Shown here piece by piece: positions 35,300 through 64,000 of a stretch of DNA of 64,000 nucleotides; within the stretch, counting starts at the first letter, position 1; each line of letters opens with the position of its first letter. The position numbers and the translations under genes are program-made. The stretch comes from the human T2T-CHM13v2.0 reference genome, Homo sapiens: positions 20,832,001-20,896,000 of the forward strand of contig CP086569.2 of NCBI GenBank assembly GCA_009914755.4, in the 5' to 3' direction. The notes below the pieces were generated by a model, which did no database searches, had not been told where the DNA came from, and saw nothing but the letters and a program-made list of their open reading frames with translations.

Positions 35300-36455
35300 A
35301 AATGGAGGTATTTCATGAGCCCCCCTCCTACAATAAATTGGAAAAAAGACAGGAGATACACTACAGTTATGGGACCCTGTCTTAGGTAAGTGGCATTAAA
35401 AGGGGAGCTCTTAGCCTGCCCAGTAGTGCAAGATCAACAAAGCAATCAGGTACATAAAGAGATAAGGAAAACCATTAGAGATAATGGAGACACTAGCTCA
35501 TTTACAAAAGGATTAATTGAGGCCATAGCAGACAACTTATCTATGACTCCATGAGACTGCTCAGTGCTAGCTAAAACAACTTTAAACACCAGTCAATATC
35601 TCCTCTGGAGGGCAGAATTTGATGAATTCTGTGAACAGCAAAGCCTTTTCTAATCATAGCCACTGTTATTCCTCTCCTACCCTTGATGGGACTCTCTCAA
35701 GATCCAATTTGGGTAGAACAGTAGCCTTTAAAGGGAGAGAAATTACCAACAGCCCATGAGTTAGTTGAGGAGCAATTAAAAACCAGTCATATAGAATCGT
35801 CAAACAGCCCTTCAAATTCACCCATTTTTATCAATCCCAAATGGAAAATGGAGACTTTTTGCATGACTTACATGCTGTCAATGCTAATCTGCAACCTATG
35901 GTGCCCTTTCAGCAGGGGCTCCCTCACCTTGCAGTGATTTATCAAGATTGGCCTATAATCATTACTGACTTAAAAGACTGCTTTTATACTATCCCCCATG
36001 CAAAACAGGACAGAGAAAACTTCCATTTACAAGATCAGCTATCAATAAGGAAAAGCCAGCTCACCAATTTTATTGGAAGGTACTTCCTCAAGGTATGCTG
36101 AAGAGACATACCATATGTCAGTATCAGGTAAATCAAGCTTTACAGTAGAAAAAAAATTCAAATTACAAGATTATTCATTTTATTGATATTTTACTAGCAG
36201 CCCCAACAGAGCCAGTACTTTTCAAGTTATATGCCTCTGTCATAAAGAATACACAGTTAAGAGATTAAATCATAGCACCTAAAAAAAATACAGATGTCTT
36301 CTCTTTGGAAAAATCTTGGGTACCTACTACCTTCTTGGTCAGTAAGACCTCAAAATGTTAAATTAAATGCTAGCACCTTAAATGATTATCAGAAATTACT
36401 AGGCGATATTAACTGGCTTTGCTTCATCTTAGACATAACTAGTGATAAGTTACAG
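35300..36455 (+). pseudogene. ERVK-like protease and reverse transcriptase remnant (frameshifts and stops)
   Basis: PVWVEQWPLKGEKLPTAHELVEEQLKTSHIE resembles the HERV-K RT N-terminus [77 protein letters not shown] matches the betaretroviral motif [27 protein letters not shown] matches [31 protein letters not shown] matches HERV-K [15 protein letters not shown]. Confidence 0.8.
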
Positions 36456-37200
36456 AACCGGCTTTCTATGCTAAAAGGCAATGTGTCTGGAATTGGTTCC
36501 CTCCATTAGGTTCTTGGTCTTGCAGACTTCAATAATGAAGCCGCAGACCCTCGCAGTGAGTGTTATAGTCTTAAAGACCATGTGTCTAGAGTTCGTTCCT
36601 TCAGATGTTTGTGGTCTCACTGACTTCAGGAGTGAAGCTGCAGACTTCCTCAGTGAATGTTACAGCTCTTAAAGATGGCACGTCCAGAATTGTTTTTTAT
36701 CTCCTGGTGGGTTCGTGGTCTTGCTGAGTTCAGGAAAGAAGCTGCAGACCTTCACAATGATTGTTACAGCTCTTAAAGGTGGCTCATCCAGAGTTGTTCA
36801 TTCTTCCAGTGGGTTTGTGGTCTGCTGGTTTCAGGAGTGAAGCTGCAGACCTTCGTGGTGTTACAGATCATAAAGGTAGTGTGGACCCAAAAAGAGCAGC
36901 AGCAAGATTTATTGCAAAAAGTGAAAGAACAAAGCTCCCACAGCATGGAAGGGGACATGATGGGTTGCCGCTACTGGCTCTGGTGGCCACTTTTTTCCCC
37001 TTATTTGGCCCCACCTACATCCTGCTGATTGATCCATTTTACAGAGTGCTGATTGGTCCTTTTTTACAGAGTGCTTATTGGTGGATTTACAAACTTTTAG
37101 CTAGACACAGAGTGCTGATTGGGGCATTTACAATCCTTTAACTAGACAGAAAAGTTCTCCAAGTCCCCACCCAACCCAGAAACCCAGCTGGCTTCACTTC
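36455..37200 (+). mobile_element. LTR12-family (HERV9-type) solo LTR or LTR fragment inserted within ERVK pol
   Basis: Four tandem diverged copies of the about 70-bp unit GGTTC(T/G)TGGTCT(T/C)GC(A/T)GACTTCAGGAGTGAAGCTGCAGACCTTCGC.GTGAGTGTTACAGCTCTTAAAG. Then CATAAAGGTAGTGTGGACCCAAAAAGAGCAGCAGCAAGATTTATTGCAAAAAGTGAAAGAACAAAGCTCCCACAGCATGGAAGGGGAC. Then three (GAGTGCTGATTGGT.CATTTACAA.CCTTTA.CTAGACA) CCAAT/ATTGG repeats, and GAAAAGTTCTCCAAGTCCCCACC...CCCAGCTGGCTTCAC. The ERVK pol reading frame is contiguous across the element (before it ...NRLSMLKGN, after it ...SPKYLTPAARRETEEIEQA). Confidence 0.7.
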
Positions 37201-38700
37201 TTAGCAATACTGCCCTAGACTCTCCCAAGTATTTAACTCCTGCAGCACGAAGAGAAACTGAAGAGATAGAGCAAGCTATTTCTCAGAAGCAACTAGATTG
37301 CATAGATGCATGGTATTCAGTTCAGTTGTTTGTTTTTCCCACTCAACAGTCTCCTACAGGGTTAATAGGACCGATGGCCCCAGGGCTGTCTCTCTAGAAT
37401 GAGTTTTTTCCTCACAAATCAGGACTAAAACCCTCTCTCCCTAAATCCAGTTAGTTAGTTAATAAAGTCATGTATTCAGGCTGCAGATGATGCAATCAGT
37501 TGCTAGGTTATGACTCTGTTATCAGAATTTGTTTAAGTAAAAAGGAATTTGAAGCATTATTGCCCTTATTTATGGACTTGCAATTAGCACTTTCCAATTA
37601 TATAGGACATATAGAGCACACCCTTCCTGCTGACAAACTCCTTTAGCTCTTATCTTGTACTTCTATGGTTTTGCCTACTAAAATAGTTCAATACCCCATA
37701 CCTGATGCTTTAACACTGTTTACTGGTGACTCTGGTAAATGGAAAAACGGCTGTTTGGTGGAGACTGCATAATTCCCTCACTCCTTCTGGATTCGCTAGC
37801 ACTCAGAGAGCTGAGGTTGGAGCCTTAATATTGGCCTCAGAAACTTTTTCCACCCAGCCTATCAATATTGTTAGTGACTCTGCTTACTCTGCTTTCTTAT
37901 TGCAGAAACTTGAGACAGCCCTCATTAAGTCCACTCTGGAGCCCATCCTGTGTGTACTTTTTCACTGACTTCAGCAATTGCTAGATCAACGTACACATCC
38001 TATTTTTATTACACACACTTGGGCCCATAGCTCATTGCCTGGCCCATTGGCTTATGGAAATAATAAAGCAGACCTGCAAGTTATGACATCACAGCTTGAC
38101 TAAGCCACCTAATTGCATCAATTCTTTTCACCAAAACTGGAGAAACTTATCTAAACAATCTCAATTTACCCAGAGGTTAGCTAAACAAATTACCCTGCAA
38201 TGTCCAGATTGCCAGCTCACAGGTACATCTCCTCCTTCAACGGGTGCTAACCCTATAAAACTAGAACCTAATCAGTTATGGCAAACAGATGTTACATATG
38301 TCCCTGAATTTGGAAAACTTAAATATATACATGTATCCATTGATACATTTAATTAGCACTCATGCTTCTCCTGGAGAGTCCACCTGATATGTCATTAAAC
38401 ATCCTCTTTTAACTTTTGCATTTACGGGATGGCCCACAAAAATTAAAACTGACAATGGTCCAGCTTATGCCAGCTCAAAATGTCACATCTAGAACATCCA
38501 ACATTCCACAGGCATCCTGTTACAACCCACAAGGACAGGCCATAGTAGAACATGTCCATTCAACTCAGACTCAAGTATTGTCTTAGAGCAATGTAAAAGT
38601 GGACAAACAAAAATTCTAACCAGAAATGATACACTTAAGACATGCAGAATCAACACAAATTATAAAAATGCAGGTTAAAATCCCATTATTGTATTGTGCA
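37200..38700 (+). pseudogene. ERVK-like pol remnant: RT connection, RNase H and integrase
   Basis: LTPAARRETEEIEQAISQKQLDCIDAWYSVQLFVFPTQQSPTGLIGP resembles HERV-K [93 protein letters not shown] resembles [71 protein letters not shown] resembles [53 protein letters not shown] resembles [42 protein letters not shown] resembles [14 protein letters not shown]. Confidence 0.85.
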
Positions 38701-41629: not shown

Positions 41630-42960
41630 AAGAAATAGAAGGATCAAAACTATAGAAATAAGAGGTAATAAGAAATAAATAAAATTTTAGCAATTAAATA
41701 AAATGAATAGTCATAAGATAAAAAATAAATAGAAGTAAAATAAACAGGGCTATAATAAAATTAAAATGTAAAGATAAACAAAAATAAAATATGAATAAAG
41801 TAATAAAAATAAAACAGATAATATAAAGAAAAACAAAACTTTAAAAATAGGGAAGAAATGCAAACATAACAAAAGTGCAAAAAATGAAAAAAATTAAAAA
41901 CTAAAATGAAAATAAATAAAGAAGACTATAAATGGAGACATAATAGAAAATATAGTAAAAAATTAAAAAATGAATTAAATGCAGACAGAACAAAATGAGA
42001 TAATTGCAAATAAAATAGAAAATAATTAAGTTAGTATTCACAAATAAGTGAAAATAAAAATAAAATAAAAATAATCGAAAGGTAGTAAAACTAACTATAA
42101 ATTGAAAAAATAAATGGAAGAGAAAAAGCTAAACAAAAATAAATACAGTAAATATAAAAAACTAAAAAATAAATAAAAATGTAAAACAAGTGAGGAGAAT
42201 ATTTTTAAAAAATGAATTATAAGATGAATATGTGAGAATATAAAATAAATACTAATAGGATAAAATATACAAAAAATATAAAGAGAAATATGTAAAATTA
42301 ATGAAGATAATATGAGATAGAAGGTAGACATAACTTGAAGTATAATTAAATAAACATTTAATATAAAATAAGAGAAGTGAAAAGCTAAAGTTAAATGAAA
42401 AGTAGTTAGAAACATTTCATACATAATATAAATATATTAAATGAAGATAAATACGATAAAATTAATAATAAAATAAATAAAATATAAAATAAAATAAATA
42501 ATAAATGATGACTATAAAATTAAATTGGCTGTTTTGTAATAAGTGGAGGAATGAAAATAAAGGGAAACCAAATAAAATAAATTAAATAAAAAATAAATAA
42601 AATAAAAAAGAAATATAAGTAAAATAAAATATATATAAAAAGCAAAATAAAAGAAGAACAAAGGAAAAATCTAAAGAAAGAAACTAAAATCAGATAAAAA
42701 TGAGAGGTAAAATTGTAAAATGAAGTAAAAAATAATGTAAAGGGAAATAAAATGCAATTAAGGAAAATTAAGACATAAAAGTTAGACAATAATAAGTGAA
42801 ATAAACATAAAGGAGTGAAACAAATACAAATGCGATGAGAAAAAATCGAATATTCTTAACATAATTTTAAAAATAGAATATATGAAGAGAGAAACAAAAT
42901 AAAGAATAATTTAGAAATAATCATAATTTAAAATGAAGATAATAAAGAAAATAAAACTTT
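41630..42960. repeat. 1.3 kb A-rich imperfect simple-repeat tract of (AAAAT)n, (GAAAA)n and (ATAAA)n-like units
   Basis: Continuous text such as AAATAAATAAAATTTTAGCAATTAAATAAAATGAATAGTCATAAGATAAAAAATAAATAGAAGTAAAATAAACAGGGCTATAATAAAATTAAAATG. The minus-strand ORFs at 42095-42424 and 42520-42789 are F/L/I/Y-rich artefacts. It abuts the L1M 3' fragment at 42972. Confidence 0.85.
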
Positions 42961-42971
42961 ATAACAATTAC

Positions 42972-43566
42972 TTCTGGGAATGCAAGATGGTATGGTAATT
43001 TTGAAAAATAATTCAGCAGCTTCTTATAAAATTAAACCTGTACTTATTCCATGATCCAGGAATTTCAGTCCCAGATATTTACTAAAACAAATTGCAAACT
43101 AACGTTTAAACAATAATCTGTTTCTGAATGTTTATAGTCACTTTCTTTATAACTGTCAGAGGTGGAAGATTAACAGATATTCTTTAATAAGCAAATTAAT
43201 TAGAAAAAAAACCTGGTTCATTTGTACAATGAAATACCACATGTCAAAAAAGGAACTTGTTATGTATTTAAGTGGATCTTTCTAAGTTAGGGAGCTCAGA
43301 TTTAAAGACTGTACACTATATTATTCCATTTACATGACATAGCAAAAGGAAAATTATAGGAAGGGAAGATGAATAGTGGTTGCCCAAAGAAGGGATTGGG
43401 GAAGGAGTTGATTACAATGGGGAAGCATGAGACAATTTTTGACATGTTGTAAAACAGTTCTGTGTAGTAGTTTCGAGGTGAATATGTGACTGTAGACAGT
43501 TGTTAAAATCCACTTCATTGTGAACCACAATAAATAAATTTTTCTCTAGGTAATATTAAAAAAAAT
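42972..43566 (+). mobile_element. L1M-type LINE-1 3' end fragment, plus
   Basis: CTGGGAATGCAAGATGGTATGGTAATTTTGAAAAATAATTCAGCAGCTTCTTATAAAATTAAACCTGTACTTATTCCATGATCCAGGAATTTCAGTCCCAGATATTTACT ... GGGAAGGGAAGATGAATAGTGGTTGCCCAAAGAAGGGATTGGGGAAGGAG ... ends CCACAATAAATAAATTTTTCTCTAGGTAATATTAAAAAAAATT. It matches the canonical mammalian L1M 3' end. Confidence 0.85.
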
Positions 43567-44449
43567 TCACCAATATGTTGGAGAAACTAATGTAAAATAT
43601 AGATATTGAAAAATTTATTGAATTGTATTACGAAGTATGACATACTAATATTGAAGGGGTGGAGATGAAAGGTCCTAACTTAAGTAAGTTTAAAATAAAA
43701 AACAGTGTTTTTGTACAGTACTAAGAACTGTAAACAAACACTTTTTTTAGTATATATTAAAACACTTTTAAATATATATTAAAAAGTTAGCAATTCTGAG
43801 ACAATATTATGCTAGTAAGTAAATTATAGATAATTAGATTTGTTTCTCACTGTGTTTGAGGGGAAATAAAATATTAAAAAGAAAATACTAAAACCTTTTG
43901 ATGTTGGATTGTATTTGAAAATATTTGTAGAAACTTTTGTCACTCTTAATATATCTAGAAAAATGATAGATACAGATATAGATAAGTATGAAGAGCTGAG
44001 TTTATATTTACATGCACATTTCCTAACTCCATCAGCTGAGAGGGCCCAGAAGTAGTGGTACTCCAGTATTAGTGAGCACACCGTGATCTCACGTCTTGCT
44101 TTCTAAATTACATTATTTAATAAAATAAAATAGAAAATTTGGGGAAAATGGTTAATTACAGGGCTGTAAATGAAACATACCAAGTGAGTGTAGAATATCT
44201 TTTAGAGTTAGAAAGTTAGGAAATAACTTTAGCAGAAAAAAAAGACATATTAATAGGACCCAGACTTATAGGTCTCACAGTGGAGTAAGCTGGGGCAATG
44301 GCAGTGTTAGTAACAAAATAATTATAGTATTGAATAATTGTATAAACTAGAGACTAAATATCCATGAGTCCATATGGATATAAAAAGATTAAATAAGAAA
44401 AAAGAGAGAAATTAAAAACTGAAAGAAAAAAGAATGTGAAGAAGGAAAA

Positions 44450-50560: not shown

Positions 50561-51049
50561 AATGAGACTGCTACATTGTGGTGCATTGTTGAGACTATAA
50601 CACTATCATCATAGTCCTCAGCAATACTTTACTTTTCAAAATAATGGACTCTCTTATGTGTGTCTTGTAGGACTCTACTAGTTGTGATAAACATCTTCAG
50701 AATTTGTTTTCAATTCTGGAACTTTTTTTTTTTTTATTTTGAAGTAAAACATTTCCAGATGAATTAGCTTTGTTTGGTAGAATTTTTTGTTTTATCACAT
50801 TGAAATTTGGGATATTTTTAGCTTTTTTTTATACAAATAATCTGTCTGCCACTCCTAAATATATCTAGTCAATAATGTCTAATAAATGTCATATTTTATT
50901 TTTTTGATATTTTAAAAATATTTTAAAAATATTTTTTGTGTTTATGAATCAATACGTCTTTAATTTCGTGATGATTTTGTTACCAGGAATTCTGCATTGC
51001 AATGGTTCCCTGAACTATGGACATAAACAGAGTCAGAGCTCTTAATGAA

Positions 51050-51740
51050 TAATCTTAGTTCTTGTGACAGTGAGCAAATAATTGCAAAATAACATCAAAA
51101 TACAAGTTTAAAAAATGTTTATTGAAGCACAGTAACACACTCCCAGAAAGACAGTGGAGTAATTTCTGTGAAATGAAATTATCCTCTCTTTACACAACTC
51201 GGTCTTTCATGGAGGTTTTGGAGGGAGGAGTTGAGGTTTGGGCTGTGTCTGAGTGACAAAATAGTGTTATTTGTTTAGCAGTTAATGGATATTTAGCTAA
51301 AATTAAACTATGACTGTTCTTAACCCTAATTCATTAAGAAAAGCACACTGAGTGAAGGGCAGTAAATCCCCATGTAATTTTTATTATAATAAGAGCATGG
51401 TGGGCTCAGTTTTAATTTGAGGACACAGTTCTGTGTTACTGGGCATGTGGCACTTTAGGTTATTTCCACCTGTGCACTAGTTTGTCCTGTTCCAGGCTGT
51501 GCTGGCCAGACCTTACCACAATCTCCATCCATTAAGTTTGAGTTAGAACAGCTCTGGGGCTAAACTTAAGTGGGTCATGGGCTGTCTTCGTGACATCCTT
51601 TCTGCTCTCTTTTCTAACTGCCTTGCTGATGCTAATATCTAACTACCTAATATTTTACCTTCAAGAGTAAAGGACCCAAATCTTTGATAGATGTGTAACA
51701 ATCAATCTGGTTACTTCCTGATGACAAGGACCAGTGGTAT
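51050..51740 (-). mobile_element. Candidate 3' LTR (minus) of the provirus containing env remnant A
   Basis: Lies immediately 3' of env-A on the minus strand. The minus-strand poly-A signal reads CTTCAATAAACATTTTTTAAAC (plus-strand coordinates about 51105-51120). Boundaries are not established. Confidence 0.25.
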
Positions 51741-51766
51741 TAGTTAAGTCCTCTCTCTCACTTTCT

Positions 51767-52442
51767 TTAAGCTAGAAGGTTGAACATAAGATAATGATAC
51801 ATGCCCAAAGAGTTCAGGTAGATTTCAATGTGGTTGGAAGCTCCTGGTATCTTTGTTGTACAATTATTTGAAGTTTTATGGATTATAAATAACAAGAAAT
51901 GAAATGTACACAAATGGCAAATAAACATGGACCAAAAAGGAGAAGTAAAATAGTTACCAGGTGTCCTTCCAGTAGAAGAAACCAAGATATAAAAGGCAAA
52001 TAACCCTTTACATTTGTCCATATAGGGTTTGATTGATTCGTGCTTGCTGTTTTGAGTCATGTAGCCACTTCAAGGACTCTATTGGCTTCTTTGGAAGAGT
52101 TGATATGAAAAAAACAGGAGGTATTGGCCAGGGCACAAAGTCCCCCTTGTTTGTCCAAAAGATAATCTAAGGCACTACGACAGTCTGCCACCTGAGCTGC
52201 CAAGGAGTCAAGGGATGTTTGTAAGGCTTAAAACCCTTGCCTGTATTTTCAGCATTATATTGTAAGTAGGTGGACACATCTCGTATAGTATGGGCATTAT
52301 AGGCTATGCCTCCTGCTAAACCCCCAAGGGCACTTACTGAAGTACTAATTCCCAGTGCTATTAGCCAAGGTCCTTTTTTATTTCTGTGATGGTTGAGACT
52401 GGGGGGAGTAAGGTTAGTATACATTTGGATGGTGTTTGGCAC
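51767..52442 (-). pseudogene. Gamma-retrovirus-type ERV env remnant A: SU/TM cleavage site, fusion peptide, immunosuppressive domain and membrane span of the TM subunit
   Basis: The minus ORF at 52167-52442 reads ...HHRNKKGPWLIALGISTSVSALGGLAGGIAYNAHTIRDVSTYLQ, a furin-like RNKK followed by a hydrophobic fusion peptide (compare syncytin AVWLVSALAMGAGVAGGITGS). The next frame reads ALQTSLDSLAAQVADCRSALDYLLDKQGGLCALANTTCFFHINSSKEANRVLE (compare MLV [35 protein letters not shown]). Then ...KCKGLFAFYILVSSTGRTPGNYFTSPFGPCLFAICV (compare [35 protein letters not shown]). It carries stops and frameshifts. Confidence 0.7.
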
Positions 52443-53749
52443 ATTTGTTACCCAAGTTAAGGAGTAGGTTCACCTGATTGCTGATTGGTCCAAGCTGCTT
52501 AGTCCTCATAGCTTGCATTTTTTTAAAATCTGCATTCAAACCATAATATTTGAAAAGCAGAGATAGTTGCATGGTTTCTGAGAATGAGTTTGATAATGTT
52601 GCGGAGTAAACAATTGTTAATCATATTACTTTCTGATACCAAAGGTCCCCAGGATGCCCTGGTCCATTTATAAGCCTTACCTAGGAATACCAGTTTGTGA
52701 GTATTCCACCTATCACATTAGCTCATATGTACTCGATGGCATGACTAACTGCTTAAGTTTTGTTATATTTGCATGTTTTCATTATCCTAGATTCATTTAA
52801 CCTTTAGTATGTAAAGGCCCTTGGTTTACAGTCTTAAGTAGCTGAGAGCAAATTTAATAAAGCCTTGAGTGGAAGAGTCTCAATTTTGACTTTTGGGATG
52901 TTCAGTAGCCATTTGACTTGGAAAATCTGTTTTTTTTAAATCAACAATAATAATATATTTGAGGACTCAGGAATATAACAGTCTTCAAAAAGACCGTGAA
53001 TACTGGTGGGGGCTGTTGTTCCAGAGATGACAATATAAAGATTTTTTTAAAGCTGTTAATGGTTTAATCATTCTTTACTCAGACTTTATCTTCTACCTCC
53101 AGACCTCAATGTTTCAGTAATTCATGATGTTATCACTGACTGTATGTCACTTATTTTCCCATACAGTATAAAATTGAGTCTATCATTAACCTATCTGAAA
53201 TCTGAATAATGTGAACGCCCCAGGTAGGCACAAGGAAGAAACAGGTGAAGTCTGTGGTTTTAACCTTCCAAGGTGCAACCTTCTCCTTTTTTTATTAGTT
53301 CCTGGGCTCCAAATAGAACTTAACTACCACCTCTCATTACCTGGAGTAGCTGGTCAGTAGATTCGTATCTTTCCCTTTCAAAATATAGTGGTGAATCTTC
53401 CATCTTTAAGCTGTCTTTTGGAAATGTCTCTGGGCCACAGTTTGTTCCTCTGAATAGAGGAATGGGAAATACATTTACCTCGCACAGTTTTTCTTGGGAC
53501 TAAATGGGCTAAAACATGGCATGTAAGCCTGCTTTTGTGTAAGCCTGGTTTTGTGAAACAGGCTGCTTGGTGTGCTGCAGTTGTTCTTGTTTGTTTGTTT
53601 TGCCTCTCACATAAGAAGCTATCTGATTTATACACCTATTACTTATGTTCCTATATGTTTAAAAAACACATAGAAAGACAACAGTTTTTTAAACATGTGT
53701 AAGGAGGTTTATATTCCTTCTAGCTAGTCTTTGTCTTCAACACAGACAA

Positions 53750-54520
53750 AAAAGAGAACTCTGGGAGTTACTGGTGGAGGATCTGGATTACAAGTCATAT
53801 AGGTTATTGGCATTTTGAACAAATAATTGTGCAAAATGCACAGAGAAAGCTAAACAAGAATAAACCAATCAAAGCATAGCTTTATTGAAATGAAAGTAAA
53901 CTCCAAAGAGTGGGTGTGGGCTCAAATAAGTGGCTCAAGAGAACTGATTATAGAGTTTTCTGGGGTTTAAATGCCTTCCAGAGATTTCCCATTGGTTACT
54001 TGATTTACACCCTATGTAAAGAAAGTAGAGACTCTTGACTGTCTGATTGGTTGTGAAAGGGGCCAATCAGTGGCTGAATTGAAGTTACAAAGTTATACCA
54101 TATGCAAATGTATGATTGGTTGTCAGAGGGATCTTAACAGAGGCAAAAGTGAAGGTAGAAAGTTTCACCCCTGTAAAAATGAGGACTAGACCCATGACTA
54201 GTCTGATGGTGATGGAAAGTTACAAAATCAGAGGACCTTACCATTTTTTATCATGCCACAGAAATGGAGGGTGGTTGCAAGGGTACTAGCTTTTTATCTT
54301 TTTGTTCCTTGGGCATAGAGAGTTGGGGCTTTCTTTTAATTTAATGCTAGTAAGTCAGCACAAGTTGGCCTTAGATTCCCTGCTTCCAGACTCTATTCTC
54401 CTACTTCATTTCTCCCCCGAGTGATGTTTTCCCCTTAAATGTTTACAGAAGGCTGAGGGGACCAATGGTCCTTCTTCTGTAACTGCTTTATGCAGACTTG
54501 GAGTGCAGTGCCTACTTACT
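53750..54520 (-). mobile_element. Candidate LTR (minus) 3' of env remnant B; contains ATTGG/CCAAT boxes
   Basis: CTGATTGGTTGTGAAAGGGGCCAATCAGTGGCTGAATTG and TATGATTGGTTGTCAGAGG at about 54030-54130. Located directly 3' of env-B on the minus strand. Boundaries and family are unresolved. Confidence 0.25.
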
Positions 54521-54806
54521 GGGTACCACAGAACCCTTGTCTTGCTTTGTCTAATGGAGACAGGGTAGCTTCTTAATGGCCAGGGATGGTGTCTTTACCG
54601 GGAAATGGCTGAAAATATTGTCACATAAGATGATTGATGGTTTCTAGCCAGGAGAAAATAAATTTGGCTAAGAGATTTAAAAAACATAGCCCCCAAACCA
54701 AGGCAAGAATAATCATTAATAATGGACTGGCCAAGGGAAGGAGACATGAACCCCAACTTGACATGTATGACCAGGAGCCCATGACTTGTATAGCTGTTAT
54801 TGTATC

Positions 54807-55200
54807 TTACAAGCTCAATTGGCCAGTTTTCAGGCAGCATCCCTTACTATTCCTTATTCGTTGATGTAAAAACAGCATTCTTCCTCCAGAAAATAAACAT
54901 AAGCCATCTTTTTCAATGGTTAAAATATCCAGTCCCCTTCTATTTTGTAAAGCAACCACTACCAAGATGTTTATTTTGTAAAGTGACAATACTTTGGGCA
55001 GTTTAATTCAAGCTTTCTGAAAGATCCTTGGACAAGTGGTTGTTAATAGGATAGGAAAGTTGCAAGAGTGCTAACTCTTGTTTCCACCTCTGCTCTTATT
55101 TGTTCACCTACCAAAAGACTTATGAGTTCTATGGGTCATTTGTGCCTGGCTGTTGCAGTTAAAGGCATAATGAGAGACTGGTTACTGTTTCAACCCAGCC
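54807..55200 (-). pseudogene. Gamma-retrovirus-type ERV env remnant B: SU/TM cleavage site, fusion peptide, heptad repeat and immunosuppressive domain
   Basis: The minus strand reads ...TATARHK*PIELISLLVGEQIRAEVETRVSTLATF (compare FeLV RHKREPISLTLAVMLGLGVAAGVGTG), then ...SKDLSESLN*TAQSIVTLQNKH (compare DKDISQLTQAIVKNHKNL), then the ORF at 54807-54989 ...[38 protein letters not shown] (compare [30 protein letters not shown]). It is about 60% similar to env-A at the nucleotide level, so it is a different or much diverged element. Confidence 0.7.
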
Positions 55201-56935
55201 AGTAAGGGTGTCTATTAGTTCTAGCAAAAATTTGTATGCTTTCAAAGCTGTCATCTAGGTGCAATCTAATTGCCAATCTCCCCCTCTAACTTTAGCCTAT
55301 ATATTCACACATGGAATCTCTTTTACAATTACTTTTTCATAAACCTTCCCCAACTCATTCAAATCCTTAGATTTGTCCTATCTCACTTAAAAAAACACTT
55401 TAACCTTCAACACTTATGCAAGTAATCCACATTCACATGCTTTTACCAAAAATACACTATACTTTTGTTATACAAATCCTCTTCAGATCTTAAACAGACC
55501 ATCTACAAATGTTTGGAATTTCTGACTTGTCCTATGTATCCCTCTTTTTAGACAACCAGTTATTTTAGTCCAGGACAAGAATTACCAGACAAGATCTTTT
55601 CTCATACAAAATTATTATTTTTATAACCTTCATTATCAAAAATACATGTTAACATAAATAAATTTCTTCATATATCTCTCCCCTACCTATTAGTTCATTA
55701 CTATCCTATTTTATAAATAATCTTTTTAAAAAGTCCACAATTTGAATTAAGTTTTAAGTAACTTTGTAACTACATAAAATCATTCTTTCTCACCAATAAC
55801 ACATCTTTTGGCACATTTTGAATACAGAACTATGTGTTAACTAACATTCTTATCTTTAGTAACCTTAAATTTTAGTGAATCCCTAAAAAGAAAGGAATCT
55901 TGAGTTTGTTATGTATTGAGTAAACTTTATTATTTTAATCTCTTCAATCCTGCTATATGCACATGATCTTTTTTGGATCCTGAGTGTTCAGAGGCTGGTG
56001 GGCAATGTCTATGCCATTTTGAGTTCTTTGGTGTAGTTGTACTCACCTGTAGAGAATGCCTGTTATTTATACCAGTATACTACTTGAACTCAATCTTACA
56101 ACACATTTCTTAGTGTTGTCTAATAATAATCAAACAGAAAAGTGATGATAATGTAAAATAACTCATATGTGTTTGTTCAGATAAAAGTAATTAAAGAAGA
56201 AAAATCACCAAAGGAAAAAAATGAAAAAAATTCTCATCACACTCACCTATCATCACTACACTCAATTTGTTTTCTTAGTCTCTATTTCTCACATAAGAAT
56301 GCTAGATATCACATTAAGCTCAAAACTGTAATTCAGTTTTGAGCCTAATGTAAATCAGGTTTGTCTTTTTTTAGAGTCAGTAGATTATTAATCTTTATTT
56401 CATCTTTGTCATATACGATAATATATTCCTAGGACCTGGTCCTTAGACATGGGCGTTATGGTGTGGCTTTATTCCATTTGCCAAATGTCCTGTTATATGG
56501 ATCTTTTTAATATGATTTTAGAACCTGTTAAAGTTTTGTTTCTGTCTCTGAAAAACCTTAAGTTTTTTTTTTTTTAACCTCAGGAGCAAATTGCTAAAAT
56601 TCAGTTCTCAATGTTAGAAGGAGACATAACATTTTGCTGTTTTATGGGAGATATTAATTTGCATTCATATTCTTTAATTGAGACTTCACTTTATATAGGG
56701 AATACCTTTTTATGGAATACTTTTTTATATTAGGAATACCTTTTTATGCCTTGAGATAATACTAAGGTATCTAATAGTAAAGATAATTCACCTTAACTTA
56801 ATGAGGATATATCTGTATCAGAACTGTTCATAAATTTTACTGAATAGTTCTGCTGTTACTTTTTCTTGTTTGTTTTTCTTTTTTTGCCTCTATATAGGCA
56901 CCACTGTGATGTCCAATTAATCCAAAATGGAATAA

Positions 56936-57240
56936 TACAGCTCTGGCCAGCTTCAGTATCACATGCCTGTAATCTCATCACTTTAGGAAGCTGGGGCAGG
57001 GGAATCAGTTGGGTCAAAAAGTTGGAGACCAGCCAGAGTAACATAAAAATATCCTGTTTCTATTAATTTTTTTGAAAGAAATTAACTTGGTGTGATGGCA
57101 CACTTCTCTGGTACCACTGACTTGAGAGGCTGAGGCAAGACAATCACTTAAACACAGGAGTCTGGTGCTGCAGTAAGCCATGATCACATCAGTGCACTCT
57201 TGCCCAGTTGAGAGAGTAAAATGTTGTCTCAAAAAATACA
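56936..57240 (+). mobile_element. Old Alu (AluJ/FLAM-like), diverged
   Basis: GGCCAGCTTCAGTATCACATGCCTGTAATCTCATCACTTTAGGAAGCTGGGGCAGGGGAATCAGTTGGGTCAAAAAGTTGGAGACCAGCCAGAGTAACATAAAAATATCCTGTTTCTATTAATTTTTTT ... GGTGTGATGGCACACTTCTCTGGTACCACTGACTTGAGAGGCTGAGGCAAGACAATCACTTAAACACAGGAGTCTGGTGCTGCAGTAAGCCATGATCACATCAGTGCACTCTTGCCCAG. Confidence 0.75.
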
Positions 57241-58767: not shown

Positions 58768-58845
58768 GGAGGCTGAGGAAGGAAGATTCCTTGAGGCTAG
58801 GATTTAAAGAGTAGTCTGGGTAACATAGTGAGGCCAACCTCTGGT
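58768..58845 (+). mobile_element. Alu/FLAM fragment (about 75 bp), cut by the L1 insertion
   Basis: TTGGGAGGCTGAGGAAGGAAGATTCCTTGAGGCTAGGATTTAAAGAGTAGTCTGGGTAACATAGTGAGGCCAACCTCTGG. Confidence 0.7.
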
Positions 58846-60382
58846 TTTTTTTTTTTTAATTATTATTATACTTTAAGTTCTGGTGTACATGTGCAGAATG
58901 TGCAGTTTTGTTACTAGGTATACATGTGCTCTGGTGGTTTGCTGCACCCATCAACCTGTCACCTACATTAGGTATTTCTCCTAATTCTGCCCCTCCCCTA
59001 TACCTCCACCCCCCGACAGGCCCCAGAGTGTGGTGTTCCCCTCCCTGTGTCCATATGATCTCCTTGTTCAACTCCCACTTATAAGTGAGAACATGCACTG
59101 TTTTGTTTTCTGTTCTTGTGTTAGTTTGCTGAGAATGATGGTTTCCAGCTTCATCCATGTCCCAGAAAAGGACATGAACTCATCCTTTTTTATGGCTGTA
59201 TAGTATTTCATGGTGTATATGTGCCACATTTTCTTTATCCAGTCTATCATTGATGGGCATTTGGATTGGTTCCAAGTCTTTGCTATTGTGAATAGTGCTG
59301 CAATAAACATATGTGTGCATGTGTCTTTACAGTAGAATGATTTATAATCCTTTGGGTATGTACCCAGTAATGGAATTGCTGGGTCAAATGGTATTTCTGG
59401 TTCTAGATCCTTGAGGAAGCGCCACACTATCTTCTGCACTGGTTGAATTAATTTACATTTCCAGCAACAGTGTAAAAACGTTCCTATTTCTCCACATCCT
59501 CTCCAGCATCTGTTGTTTCCTGACTTTTTAATGATGCCCATTCTAAATGGTGTGAGATGCTATCTCATTGTGCTTTTGATTTGCATATCTCTATGGACCA
59601 GTGATGATGAGCTTTTTTTCATATGTTTGTTGCTGCATAAATGTCTTCTTTTGAGAAGTGTCTGTTCATATATTTTGCCCACTTTTTGATGGGATTGTTT
59701 GATTTTTTTTTGTTTTCATTGGTTGGTCTCATCTCACCAAGCTTGAGCATCCTAGATCCATCTCAGACTGCTAGACTGCTACGGTGCTGGCCGTGAGAAT
59801 TACAAGCCAGTGGATCTTAGTTTGCTCCAGTCCATGGGGCAGGGCAGGGGTGGCGGGGGTGGGGAGCAACTCGCGGAGTCAGGCCACTTGGCTCCCTGAC
59901 TTCAGCTCACCTTTCCAGGGGAGCGAACGGTTTTGTATCGCTGGCGTTGGAGGTGCCACTGGGGTATAGAAAACAAACAAACAAACAAACAAAAAAACTC
60001 TTGCAGCTAGTTTGATGTCTGCCCAGTTTCATGCTTGAAACCCAGGGCCCTGGTGGGGTAGATACCAGAGGGAATCTCCTGGTCTCAGGTTGCGAAGACC
60101 GTGGGACAAGAGCAGTATCTGGGCCGGAGTGTGCATGGTTTCCCAGGTTCAGTCCCTCACAGCTTCCCTTGGGTAGGGGTGAAAATTCCCCTACCCTTTG
60201 CATTTTCTGGGTAATAGCAATGCCCTACCCTGCTTTGACTCGCCCTCTGTGGGCTGCGCCCACCGTCCACCCAGTCCCAATGAGTTAAACTGGGTACTTC
60301 AGGTGGAAATTTACCCACCTTCTGCATCGATCTTTCTGGGAGCTGCAGACCGAAGCTGTTCCTATTAGGCCATCTTGCCAGC
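58845..60382 (-). mobile_element. Internally deleted L1PA LINE-1 (minus): about 670 bp of 5'UTR starting near L1 position 8, joined directly to the last about 870 bp (ORF2 C-terminus plus 3'UTR plus poly-A)
   Basis: Poly-T at 58845-58858 followed by the reverse complement of the L1 3' end (TATACTTTAAGTTCTGGTGTACATGTGCAGAATGTGCAG...). The minus ORF at 59068-59541 reads ORF2 C-terminus (...[67 protein letters not shown]...). The junction is at about 59712-59725. Positions 59725-60382 are reverse-complement L1 5'UTR (GCTGGCAAGATGGCCTAATAGGAACAGCTTCGGTCTGCAGCTCCCAG...TTTCCACCTGAAGTACCC resembles GGAGCCAAGATGGCCGAATAGGAACAGCTCCGGTCTACAGCTCCCAGC...TTTCCATCTGAGGTACCGG). Confidence 0.85.
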
Positions 60383-60385
60383 AAT

Positions 60386-60527
60386 CTTTCTTTTCTTTTC
60401 TTTTCTTTTCTTTTCTTTTCTTTTCTTTTCTTTTCTTTTCTTTTCTTTTCTTTTCTTTTCTTTTCTTTTCTTTTCTCTTCTCTTCTTTTCTTTTCTCTTC
60501 TCTTCTTTTCTTTTCTTTTTTTTTTTT
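60386..60527. repeat. (CTTTT)n / (TTTTC)n microsatellite (about 25 units, imperfect) ending in a poly-T
   Basis: tctttcttttcttttcttttc...tctcttctcttcttttcttttctttttttttttt. The plus ORF at 60375-60587 (FSFLFFSFLFF...) is an artefact of this repeat. Confidence 0.95.
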
Positions 60528-60650
60528 ACAAAGGGCATCATAGGTAGAAAAACTACCTACTGGGTACCATACCCATTACATCTTTGACAGAATCCATACC
60601 CCAAAGTCAGCATCACACAACGTGCCCACTTAGCAAGGTTGCACATGTTC

Positions 60651-62411: not shown

Positions 62412-64000
<1,589 letters not shown>

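What the first reader, a model, noticed from the sequence alone, without database searches (positions are those of the whole stretch)
51050..55200. Two separate gamma-retroviral env TM remnants on the minus strand 2.8 kb apart, each followed by LTR-like sequence
Remnant A (51767-52442) still encodes a recognisable cleavage site RNKK, a fusion peptide, the immunosuppressive-domain/CX6CC region (ADCRSALDYLLDKQGGLCALANTTCFF) and the membrane-span signature LFGPCL. Remnant B (54807-55200) carries RHK(stop)PIELISLLVGEQ (a FeLV-like RHKR-EPISLTLAV), a heptad segment and a very well preserved [19 protein letters not shown]. The two are only about 60% identical to each other in nucleotides, so they are different or very diverged elements. 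This is not a recent tandem duplication. The arrangement LTR?-env-A then LTR?-env-B in the same orientation, with no recognisable gag or pol between them, suggests either two 5'-deleted proviruses or an env-LTR recombinant. I could not name the families. HERV-H, F, W, 9, E, T and ERV3 all share the ISD motif.
Basis: partly seen in the sequence, partly recalled or inferred. Interest (0 to 1): 0.55.

Follow-up and report, generated by a model that had tools for sequence, protein, structure and literature searches.

The report
Two decayed endogenous retrovirus envelope fragments
Two unrelated, long-dead endogenous retrovirus fragments (each the tail of an envelope gene plus a likely 3' LTR) sit side by side in a primate-type genome; this is ordinary genomic fossil material, not a working gene or a new kind of element.

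Summary
Both minus-strand blocks encode gamma-type retroviral Env TM remnants: Pfam TLV_coat E=4e-15 for A and 2e-33 for re-stitched B, and tblastn with database Env proteins reaches 4.5e-16 and 6.8e-14. Each is followed by a polypurine tract and an LTR-like block with AATAAA; B's also has CCAAT and TATA-like motifs.

They are two different elements. They share 27% protein identity, their DNA similarity is at shuffle level, and their LTR-like blocks are not alike. A fragment of the ancient host SINE MIR (53427-53518, opposite strand) lies between them, which argues against one contiguous provirus.

New points:
- B's TM runs on to 54621 and keeps ISD+CX6CC once a 1-nt frameshift is corrected.
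- An integrase-core fragment (55189-55284) is fused almost directly to B's cleavage site, so the rest of integrase and all of SU are deleted.
- A keeps about 45 aa of SU.

Both are dead: A has 1 frameshift and 3 stops, B has 4 frameshifts and 6 stops, and CpG o/e is 0.09. A's stops are shared with a 97.6%-identical orthologous locus.

Nearest named relatives are a squirrel Env (A, 43%) and rodent syncytin-B (B, 48%). Repeat-family names need Dfam/RepeatMasker, which was not available. Verdict: ordinary truncated ERV1-type relics, low interest.

The parts
55189..55284 (-). Element B: integrase catalytic-core fragment (GGDWQLDCT*MTALKAYKFLLELIDTLTGWVE), about 40 nt upstream of B's Env cleavage site. 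A weak collinear piece, KDLNELGKVYEKV, may extend it to 55368.
   Evidence: An a priori core motif hits once here and 0 times in 300 simulated windows. Local alignment to the database integrase in P0025 scores 60 against shuffles of 26.1+-4.1, with 0/2000 reaching it. Not detected by Pfam, PDB or the large protein search.
55136..55147 (-). Element B: SU/TM furin-type cleavage site, now RHK* (AGG CAC AAA TGA). TGA is one CpG transition from CGA, so the original site was probably RHKR.
   Evidence: Its position relative to the fusion peptide matches the syncytin-2 alignment.
54621..55135 (-). Element B: Env TM remnant. It contains the fusion peptide, a heptad region (LSKDLSESLN*TAQSIVTLQNK), ISD+CX6CC ([26 protein letters not shown]) and a membrane span (LLPLASPLLMIILALVWGLCFLNLL). 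It lies in 5 pieces across 3 frames, with 4 frameshifts and 6 internal stops.
   Evidence: Pfam TLV_coat E=2.3e-33, 116 bits, profile positions 389-559 of 560. Syncytin-2 E=1.7e-27. 48% identity to syncytin-B over 166 aa. Piece coordinates.
54409..54418 (-). Element B: core of the polypurine tract (GGGGGAGAAA) within a longer purine-rich run, followed directly by TG at 54408-54407.
53760..54408 (-). Element B: 3' LTR-like block of about 650 bp. Read on the minus strand it has TG at 54408-54407, three CCAAT boxes with low ends at 54115, 54046 and 53991, a TATA-like ATTTAAA with low end at 53966, and AATAAA with low end at 53881. The 3' end is approximate, somewhere in 53580-53860.
   Evidence: Sequence reading and motif positions. 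Motif order fits U3-R-U5 on the minus strand. No similarity to block A's LTR. No sister copies were found to fix the ends.
53427..53518 (+). MIR SINE fragment (consensus positions 110-202) in the opposite orientation. This is old host repeat sequence lying between the two ERV remnants.
   Evidence: Local alignment scores 59 against shuffles of 23.6+-3.6 (max 43), with 0/500 reaching it.
52386..52505 (-). Element A: last ~40-45 aa of SU before the cleavage site (GLSSLDQSAIR*TYSLTWVTNVPNTIQMYTNLTPPSLNHH).
   Evidence: tblastn with squirrel Env P0116 residues 280-375 aligns to 52505-52227; the two HSPs together give E=9.6e-39. SU further upstream is not detectable.
51814..52385 (-). Element A: cleavage site RNKK (52374-52385) plus the Env TM remnant. 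It contains the fusion peptide, a degenerate ISD (VADCRSALDYLLDKQGGL), CX6CF (CALANTSCF, third Cys lost) and a membrane span (LVTILLLLFGPCLFAI). It has 1 frameshift and 3 internal stops.
   Evidence: Pfam TLV_coat E=3.7e-15 and 4.3e-15. Syncytin-2 E=6e-21. 43% identity to P0116 over 211 aa, E=1e-49. Coordinates.
51749..51768 (-). Element A: polypurine tract (AAAGAAAGTGAGAGAGAGGA), just downstream of env.
50975..51748 (-). Element A: 3' LTR-like block of about 720-770 bp. AATAAA has its low end at 51118. The block ends ...GGTAACA at about 50975, where GC drops to 22-28%. The 5' start is uncertain: 51748, or about 51693 (TGTTAC...GTAACA ends).
   Evidence: The block is present and collinear in the 97.6%-identical orthologous contig L001.

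Best explanation
These are two independent, ancient, non-functional remnants of class I (gamma-like, ERV1-type) endogenous retroviruses. They lie in the same orientation on the minus strand, about 1.3 kb apart.

Each began as a germline provirus integration (inferred). Later deletions removed the 5' LTR, gag and most of pol (inferred).

- Element B (about 55370 to 53760) now reads: integrase-core fragment, then an internal deletion of the rest of integrase and all of SU, then Env TM, a polypurine tract and a 3' LTR-like block.
- Element A (about 52505 to 50975) now reads: last ~45 aa of SU, Env TM, a polypurine tract and a 3' LTR-like block.

Between them lies non-ERV sequence that includes a MIR SINE fragment.

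Neither can make protein. Both have decayed neutrally, with frameshifts, stops and CpG loss. They do nothing as genes. Any residual activity would be limited to promoter or polyadenylation motifs in the LTR-like blocks, which was not tested.
For: Shown:
- Both are Env TM.
- They belong to different lineages: 27% protein identity, no blastn similarity in env or in the downstream blocks. Their nearest relatives also differ: A matches squirrel Env P0116 at 43%, B matches syncytin-B and the P0006 group at 46-48%.
- A polypurine tract plus TG, CCAAT/TATA-like motifs and AATAAA lie in the right order after B. A polypurine tract plus AATAAA lies after A.
- No primer-binding site lies on the minus strand in 50-57 kb.
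- No gag, RT or other pol is found except the integrase core next to B.
- A MIR fragment lies between the elements.
- GC marks an ERV-type block at about 50975-55400 between AT-rich flanks.
- Disabling lesions were counted and CpG o/e is 0.09.
- A's three TGA stops are identical in the orthologous contig (97.6% identity over 2475 bp), and real codon changes are 2 synonymous and 4 non-synonymous.

Context: truncated proviruses and closely situated defective proviruses are common in the human genome (PMC4724089).
Against: - The LTR identity of the two downstream blocks rests on landmarks only. No sister copies or consensus could be aligned, and the exact ends are not fixed.
- About 1.1 kb (52506-53426 and 53519-~53760) is unassigned. 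It could still be decayed internal sequence of A, which would leave a nested-integration history open.
- The integrase fragment is too short for Pfam or PDB to detect.
Confidence: 0.85

Rival explanations
1. Nested or secondary integration. Element B integrated into the pol/env region of an older provirus A (or next to its 5' part), and later deletions removed the rest. The stretch between B's LTR and A's SU would then be decayed A-internal sequence rather than host DNA.
For: The two share an orientation and lie close together. The intervening 1.1 kb has GC of 33-42%, closer to the ERV blocks than to the outer AT-rich flanks, and is largely unassigned. Secondary integrations are a common source of mosaic HERV loci (PMC4724089).
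Against: A MIR fragment sits in the intervening stretch, and an exogenous retrovirus genome would not be expected to carry one. No pol, integrase C-terminus or SU signal is found there. No A-type sequence is detectable upstream of B.
Confidence: 0.08
2. A single recombinant or mosaic retroelement (an env-LTR-env-LTR composite of the Harlequin kind) that transposed as one unit.
For: Mosaic class I HERVs that reintegrated after recombination are documented (PMC4724089). The two remnants share an orientation.
Against: There is an internal LTR with a polyadenylation signal, no shared flanking LTRs, no PBS and no 5' LTR. There is a MIR fragment inside. No second copy of the arrangement was found in any collection searched.
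Confidence: 0.04
3. One of the env remnants is a co-opted, syncytin-like host gene, or still encodes a functional immunosuppressive or fusogenic peptide.
For: The ISD+CX6CC block of B is well preserved in sequence (6 of 6 invariant residues). A Logan gene call (P0003) appeared to give an open 148-aa frame over part of A.
Against: B needs 4 frameshift corrections and has 6 stops. A has 1 frameshift and 3 stops. SU is missing from B and almost entirely missing from A. The 'open' orthologous ORF is an artefact of reading TGA as Trp, and the same stops are present in both species, with no excess of synonymous change.
Confidence: 0.01

Closest known systems
Gamma-type retroviral Env TM subunit (Pfam TLV_coat PF00429; prototype MLV p15E; defined by the 26-residue ISD + CX6CC block, PMC11575397)
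   Same: Both remnants match the TM half of the profile. Both show a cleavage site, a fusion peptide, a heptad region, an ISD, a Cys motif and a membrane span in the canonical order. B keeps all six invariant residues.
   Different: Both are pseudogenes. A has lost two of the six invariant residues (N to C, and the last C to F). The SU partner with its CXXC motif is absent.
Syncytin-2 / HERV-FRD Env (PDB 7oix) and syncytin-1 / HERV-W Env (PDB 8ouh, 6rx1)
   Same: These are the best solved-structure relatives of both remnants. Syncytin-2 gives E=1.7e-27 for B and 6e-21 for A, and the alignment runs from the fusion peptide through the membrane span.
   Different: Identity is moderate, and several other gamma-type TMs (MPMV, HERV-T, XMRV) score almost as well on the ISD core. 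This shows domain-level kinship, not family membership. The syncytins are intact and under selection; these remnants are not.
Rodent syncytin-B (P0046 cluster, e.g. NP_775596) and an unnamed primate-type Env group (P0001, P0006, P0016)
   Same: These are the closest sequences to Env B in a 1.84-billion-protein representative library: 46-48% identity over about 160 aa, sharing LSKD.S.SL...I..LQ.QI and FLEEECCFY(I/V)NQSGIVRDAA.
   Different: Identity below 50% means a different family. Syncytin-B is an intact placental gene. The P0006 group carries a C-terminal tail of the HERV-9/W/V kind (an attribution from memory) that B lacks.
Squirrel Env XP_047407916 (P0116; the source calls it 'endogenous retrovirus group V member 2 Env polyprotein-like', Sciurus carolinensis)
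   Same: It is the only good relative of Env A: 43% identity over 211 aa, E=1e-49. It shares the unusual ALDYLLA..GG.CALANTSCCF version of ISD+CX6CC and the R-x-K-[KR]|GP cleavage context.
   Different: P0116 is an intact 528-aa protein in a rodent, while A is a broken fragment in a primate-type genome. The source's name is automatic and was not tested. SU upstream of the last ~45 aa does not align.
Truncated, closely situated defective HERV proviruses as catalogued in the human genome (Vargiu et al. 2016, PMC4724089)
   Same: Partial proviruses that keep a 3' portion plus one LTR, lie near other defective ERVs, and can be mistaken for mosaics. The window holds at least one further ERV pol remnant.
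   Different: Nothing material. The exact Repbase/Dfam family names for A and B could not be determined here.

Membership tests
Gamma-type retroviral Env (TM subunit) | Significant match to Pfam TLV_coat (PF00429) above the gathering score of 22.5 bits | tested here: met
   A scores 56 bits, E=3.7e-15. B scores 94 bits and 116 bits, E=2.3e-33, after re-stitching.
Gamma-type retroviral Env (TM subunit) | 26-residue ISD + CX6CC block with six invariant residues (N, R, D and three Cys; PMC11575397): element B | tested here: met
   [17 protein letters not shown] + CLFLEEECC has all six invariant residues and the correct 17+9 length, but only after removing a 1-nt insertion at about 54890.
Gamma-type retroviral Env (TM subunit) | 26-residue ISD + CX6CC block with six invariant residues: element A | tested here: not met
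   VADCRSALDYLLDKQGGL + CALANTSCF has 4 of 6: N is replaced by C and the last Cys by F. Its relative P0116 has all six (ENRLALDYLLAQEGGVCALANTSCC), so the losses are most simply explained as decay.
Gamma-type retroviral Env (TM subunit) | Furin-type R-X-K/R-R cleavage site directly before a hydrophobic fusion peptide | tested here: inconclusive
   A has RNKK|GPWLIALGISTSVSALGG (P1 is K, not R). B has RHK*|PIELISLLVG, where the stop is TGA, one CpG transition from CGA. Position and context are right, but neither is a canonical site today.
Gamma-type retroviral Env (whole protein) | SU subunit with a CXXC (CWLC) motif that pairs with CX6CC | tested here: not met
   No SU is detectable for B: the integrase fragment abuts the cleavage site. 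Only the last ~45 aa of SU remain for A. No C[WFY][LIVMT]C motif and no SU match were found in 52380-53800.
LTR retroelement / provirus | Polypurine tract immediately upstream of the 3' LTR | tested here: met
   B has GGGGGAGAAA at 54409-54418, followed directly by TG. A has AAAGAAAGTGAGAGAGAGGA at 51749-51768. For A, the TG start is not adjacent or is uncertain.
LTR retroelement / provirus | LTR with U3 promoter motifs, a polyadenylation signal and TG...CA termini | tested here: inconclusive
   B has TG, then three CCAAT boxes, a TATA-like ATTTAAA and AATAAA in the correct order, but its 3' end is not fixed. A has AATAAA and ends in ...GGTAACA at a composition break.
LTR retroelement / provirus | Two matching LTRs, a PBS after the 5' LTR, and target-site duplications | tested here: not met
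   The two LTR-like blocks are not similar. Both elements lack their 5' halves, so no TSD can be defined.
Retroviral Pol (integrase) adjacent to element B | Integrase catalytic core with the first two acidic residues of the D,D-35-E triad (WQxDxT ... [LIV]D[TS]xxG) | tested here: met
   The motif occurs once, at 55198-55275 on the minus strand, and 0 times in 300 simulations. Alignment to a database integrase had 0/2000 shuffles reaching the observed score. Pfam rve does not reach significance on so short a piece.
Named HERV families (HERV-W, -9, -FRD, -H, -E, -T, ERV3, etc.) | Nucleotide match to the family's Dfam/Repbase internal and LTR consensus (RepeatMasker call) | not testable with these tools
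   No repeat library is available. Protein neighbours give only supergroup-level placement. Literature string searches found nothing.
Co-opted env gene (syncytin-like) | Intact ORF conserved across species under purifying selection | tested here: not met
   Multiple stops and frameshifts. The same TGA stops occur in the orthologous contig, with 2 synonymous and 4 non-synonymous changes.

The most novel reading that the evidence does not exclude
Env A is a fossil of a little-characterised ERV1 lineage marked by the ALDYLLA..GG.CALANTSCC form of ISD+CX6CC. Its only close intact relative in a 1.84-billion-protein library is a 528-aa squirrel Env. If the lineage entered primates and rodents separately, or if the squirrel copy is a co-opted gene (possibly related to syncytin-Mar1, which was not tested), this locus would help date and trace that lineage.
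Probability: 0.12. Interest if true: 0.3.

Novelty: already known. Interest (0 to 1): 0.08.

Why it matters
It matters little beyond annotation. The locus is a textbook case of how neighbouring defective proviruses can look like a mosaic element: two unrelated env tails in the same orientation, each with its own LTR-like block.

Three practical points follow:
- Protein-level evidence, not the roughly 60% nucleotide identity, is what shows homology here.
- Short pol fragments can hide next to env, because an internal deletion has removed SU.
- Automated gene calls in public assemblies can make dead ERV frames look open, as when TGA was read as Trp.

Tried and rejected
1. Pfam scan of long stop-masked minus-strand frames (52.4-56 kb) for gag, pol or SU: only B's TLV_coat was found.
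2. Integrase fragment against Pfam, PDB and the 5.8-billion protein index: no hits, because the fragment is too short. It was resolved with in-window and pairwise statistics instead.
3. Possible integrase C-terminus upstream of A ('LEPRN..WKV', about 53150-53330): rejected, with scores at shuffle level against two integrases.
4. Rest of A's SU using P0116 residues 1-330, and a CXXC motif: nothing above noise.
5. Sister copies of either env in viral, metagenome or prokaryote-genome contigs: none. Within the window: none.
6. Literature search for diagnostic peptides (GIVRDAA, CCFYINQSG, ALDYLL): nothing useful. For syncytin-Mar1, no sequence text was available.
7. Naming through cluster look-ups: these returned only exogenous or co-opted Env names such as REV Env, syncytin-B and 'syncytin-1-like', with no HERV family names.
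8. The idea that the LTR-like block after B is the 5' LTR of A: rejected. There is no PBS, the block does not resemble A's 3' block, and a polypurine tract lies directly upstream of it.
9. A tRNA-Glu-PBS-like 18-mer on the plus strand at 54587-54604: at chance level (4 hits found in the window against my rough estimate of about 6-7 by chance).
10. The 'open ORF in the ortholog' (P0003): an artefact of an alternative genetic code.
11. A TM sequence I remembered as HERV-Fc1 turned out to be syncytin-B, so no memory-based family comparison is used in this report.
A profile built from exact window pieces plus database proteins was used instead.

Full report
**Context.** The window is primate-type genomic DNA. 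It has L1 ORF2 remnants and Alu-like text on the minus strand upstream of the finding, AT-rich background, and at least one further ERV pol remnant on the plus strand at 35.7-38.4 kb.

**Observation check.** The only slip is ...ANTTCFF, which should read ...ANTSCFF. Stitched reconstructions, with X at stops and frameshift joints, match Pfam TLV_coat far above its 22.5-bit cutoff:
- A scores 56 bits, E=3.7e-15.
- B scores 94 bits, E=1.3e-26, rising to 116 bits, E=2.3e-33, once a missed frame (LSKDLSESLN*TAQSIVTLQNK, 54970-55044) is included.

phmmer against PDB puts full-length syncytin-2 (7oix) first for both (B 1.7e-27, A 6e-21). It is followed by syncytin-1, MPMV, HERV-T and XMRV TM cores. 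tblastn of database Env proteins against the whole window hits exactly these two places (A 4.5e-16, B 6.8e-14).

**Anatomy of B (minus strand, 5' to 3').**
- *Integrase fragment.* GGDWQLDCT*MTALKAYKFLLELIDTLTGWVE (55284-55189) lies about 40 nt upstream of the cleavage site. Pfam, PDB and the indexed protein search do not detect it. Three other tests do:
  - An a priori core motif hits only here and 0 times in 300 simulated windows.
  - A database integrase (in P0025) aligns with score 60 against shuffles of 26.1+-4.1, with 0/2000 reaching it.
- *Cleavage site.* It reads RHK* (AGG CAC AAA TGA). TGA is one CpG transition from CGA, so it was originally RHKR.
- *TM.* It continues through the fusion peptide, the heptad region, a complete ISD+CX6CC ([26 protein letters not shown], needing removal of one inserted base) and GIVRDAA*KLAN. 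A membrane span then leads to a stop at 54621.
- *Lesions.* In total there are 4 frameshifts and 6 internal stops.
- *Downstream.* A purine-rich tract ends in GGGGGAGAAA (54418-54409), followed directly by TG. Three CCAAT boxes, a TATA-like ATTTAAA and AATAAA at 53886-53881 follow in that order. The order fits U3-R-U5.
- *Reading.* B is pol(integrase core), then a deletion of the rest of integrase and all of SU, then TM, a polypurine tract and a 3' LTR-like block. No RT, RNase H or gag is detectable upstream. GC falls to 21-33% beyond about 55400, so B is 5'-truncated there.

**Anatomy of A.**
- *Best relative.* An exhaustive profile search of 1.84 billion representatives followed by local ranking found one good relative, P0116. 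It is an intact 528-aa grey-squirrel Env (XP_047407916), 43% identical over 211 aa (E=1e-49).
- *Shared motif.* P0116 has ENRLALDYLLAQEGGVCALANTSCC; A has ADCRSALDYLLDKQGGLCALANTSCF. A has therefore lost two of the six residues that are invariant in gamma-type Envs (PMC11575397).
- *SU.* The P0116 alignment extends about 45 aa into the SU C-terminus (to 52505). The remaining SU is not detectable.
- *Lesions.* A has 1 frameshift and 3 internal stops.
- *Downstream.* A polypurine tract lies at 51768-51749 and AATAAA at 51123-51118. A terminal ...GGTAACA at about 50975 coincides with a drop in GC to 22-28%.

**One element or two?**
Shuffled controls give the same per-column identity, and the alignment score is only about 3.8 SD above shuffles.
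- blastn finds no significant similarity between the env parts or between the LTR-like blocks.
- At the protein level A and B are 27% identical (E about 8e-7), and they have different nearest relatives. They are different lineages, not duplicates.
- No primer-binding site lies on the minus strand in 50-57 kb. The LTR-like block after B is preceded by its own polypurine tract, so it is B's 3' block and not a 5' LTR of A.
- A local alignment places MIR SINE consensus positions 110-202 at 53427-53518 on the plus strand: score 59 against shuffles of 23.6+-3.6, with 0/500 reaching it.
- From established knowledge, MIR is an old mammalian SINE, and an exogenous retrovirus genome would not be expected to carry one. 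Its presence between the blocks argues against a single contiguous or composite provirus. It favours two separately truncated insertions with host DNA between them.
- About 1.1 kb around the MIR remains unassigned, so a nested-integration history cannot be fully excluded.

**State of decay and age.**
- CpG o/e is 0.09 in the block, the same as in both flanks.
- A Logan contig (L001) is 97.6% identical to window 50644-53117 along its whole 2475 bp. It is the same locus in a closely related species, so A was already fixed in a common ancestor.
- The 148-aa 'open' protein called on that contig (P0003) is an artefact. The three stops in the window are TGA codons, and they are identical in the ortholog, where they were translated as Trp. 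Real codon differences are 2 synonymous and 4 non-synonymous. There is no sign of coding constraint.

**Comparison with known systems.** Both are members of the gamma-type Env TM class by profile and architecture. B meets the ISD+CX6CC definition; A meets it only in inferred ancestral form.
- Nearest solved structures: the syncytins.
- Nearest sequences to B: rodent syncytin-B and an unnamed primate-type group, at 46-48% identity.
- Nearest sequence to A: the squirrel Env, at 43%.
- These identities are too low for family membership, and cluster names gave no HERV family label.
- Assignment to Repbase/Dfam families needs a repeat library, which was not available.
- The arrangement matches what Vargiu et al. 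describe as partial proviruses and closely situated defective proviruses. They note that such loci can mimic mosaics (PMC4724089).

**Verdict.** The feature is an ordinary pair of ERV fossils. Novelty: already known. Interest: low.

Noticed in passing
window 35769-38353 (+): A separate decayed ERV pol on the plus strand. RVT_1 E=0.0026 (35769-36098), RNase_H E=7e-5 (37714-37965), Integrase_Zn E=1.2e-5 (above its cutoff) and rve E=1.2e-5 (38087-38353). Motifs such as KYIHVSIDTFN and TDNGPAY look beta-like (class II). GC is raised across about 28-38 kb.
   Followed up: partly
window 53427-53518 (+): A MIR SINE fragment (consensus positions 110-202, about 68% identity) between the two env remnants: score 59 against shuffles of 23.6+-3.6.
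   Followed up: yes
window 4708-4791 (+): A weak Env C-terminal tail remnant (KVWVIKLQTFVQMEPW..IYWGPLDR) that resembles the IEAIKLQMVLQMEPQ...YQGPLD tail of P0001 (E=0.009). It was not recovered with other Env queries.
   Followed up: partly
window ~59000-60300 (-) and ~63200-63700 (-): L1 ORF2 C-terminal coding remnants (for example [23 protein letters not shown]... and ...[18 protein letters not shown]). Alu-like text appears at about 56900-57200 and about 58800-58900.
   Followed up: no
window ~60400-60550 (-): A purine-rich simple repeat that translates as (KEKKR)n in all three minus-strand frames.
   Followed up: no
window 42001-44000: Extreme composition: GC 0.228 with GC skew +0.32 and AT skew +0.26. 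This is probably a low-complexity or satellite-like stretch. It was not examined.
   Followed up: no
L001 508-954 (Logan ERR1759394), equivalent to window 52613-52170 (-): The public gene call P0003 is 'open' only because three TGA codons were translated as Trp (an alternative genetic code applied to a eukaryotic contig). This is a caution for using such protein collections to judge whether an ERV ORF is intact.
   Followed up: yes
window 52506-53426 and 53519-~53760: About 1.1 kb inside the finding is unassigned. It has no Pfam, SU, integrase or PBS signal. Its GC of 33-42% is higher than that of the outer flanks. It may be decayed internal sequence of element A, or old host repeats.
   Followed up: partly
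P0116 (XP_047407916, Sciurus carolinensis): This intact 528-aa squirrel Env is the only close relative of Env A. Whether it is a co-opted gene, for example related to syncytin-Mar1 of the squirrel clade, could not be tested.
   Followed up: no
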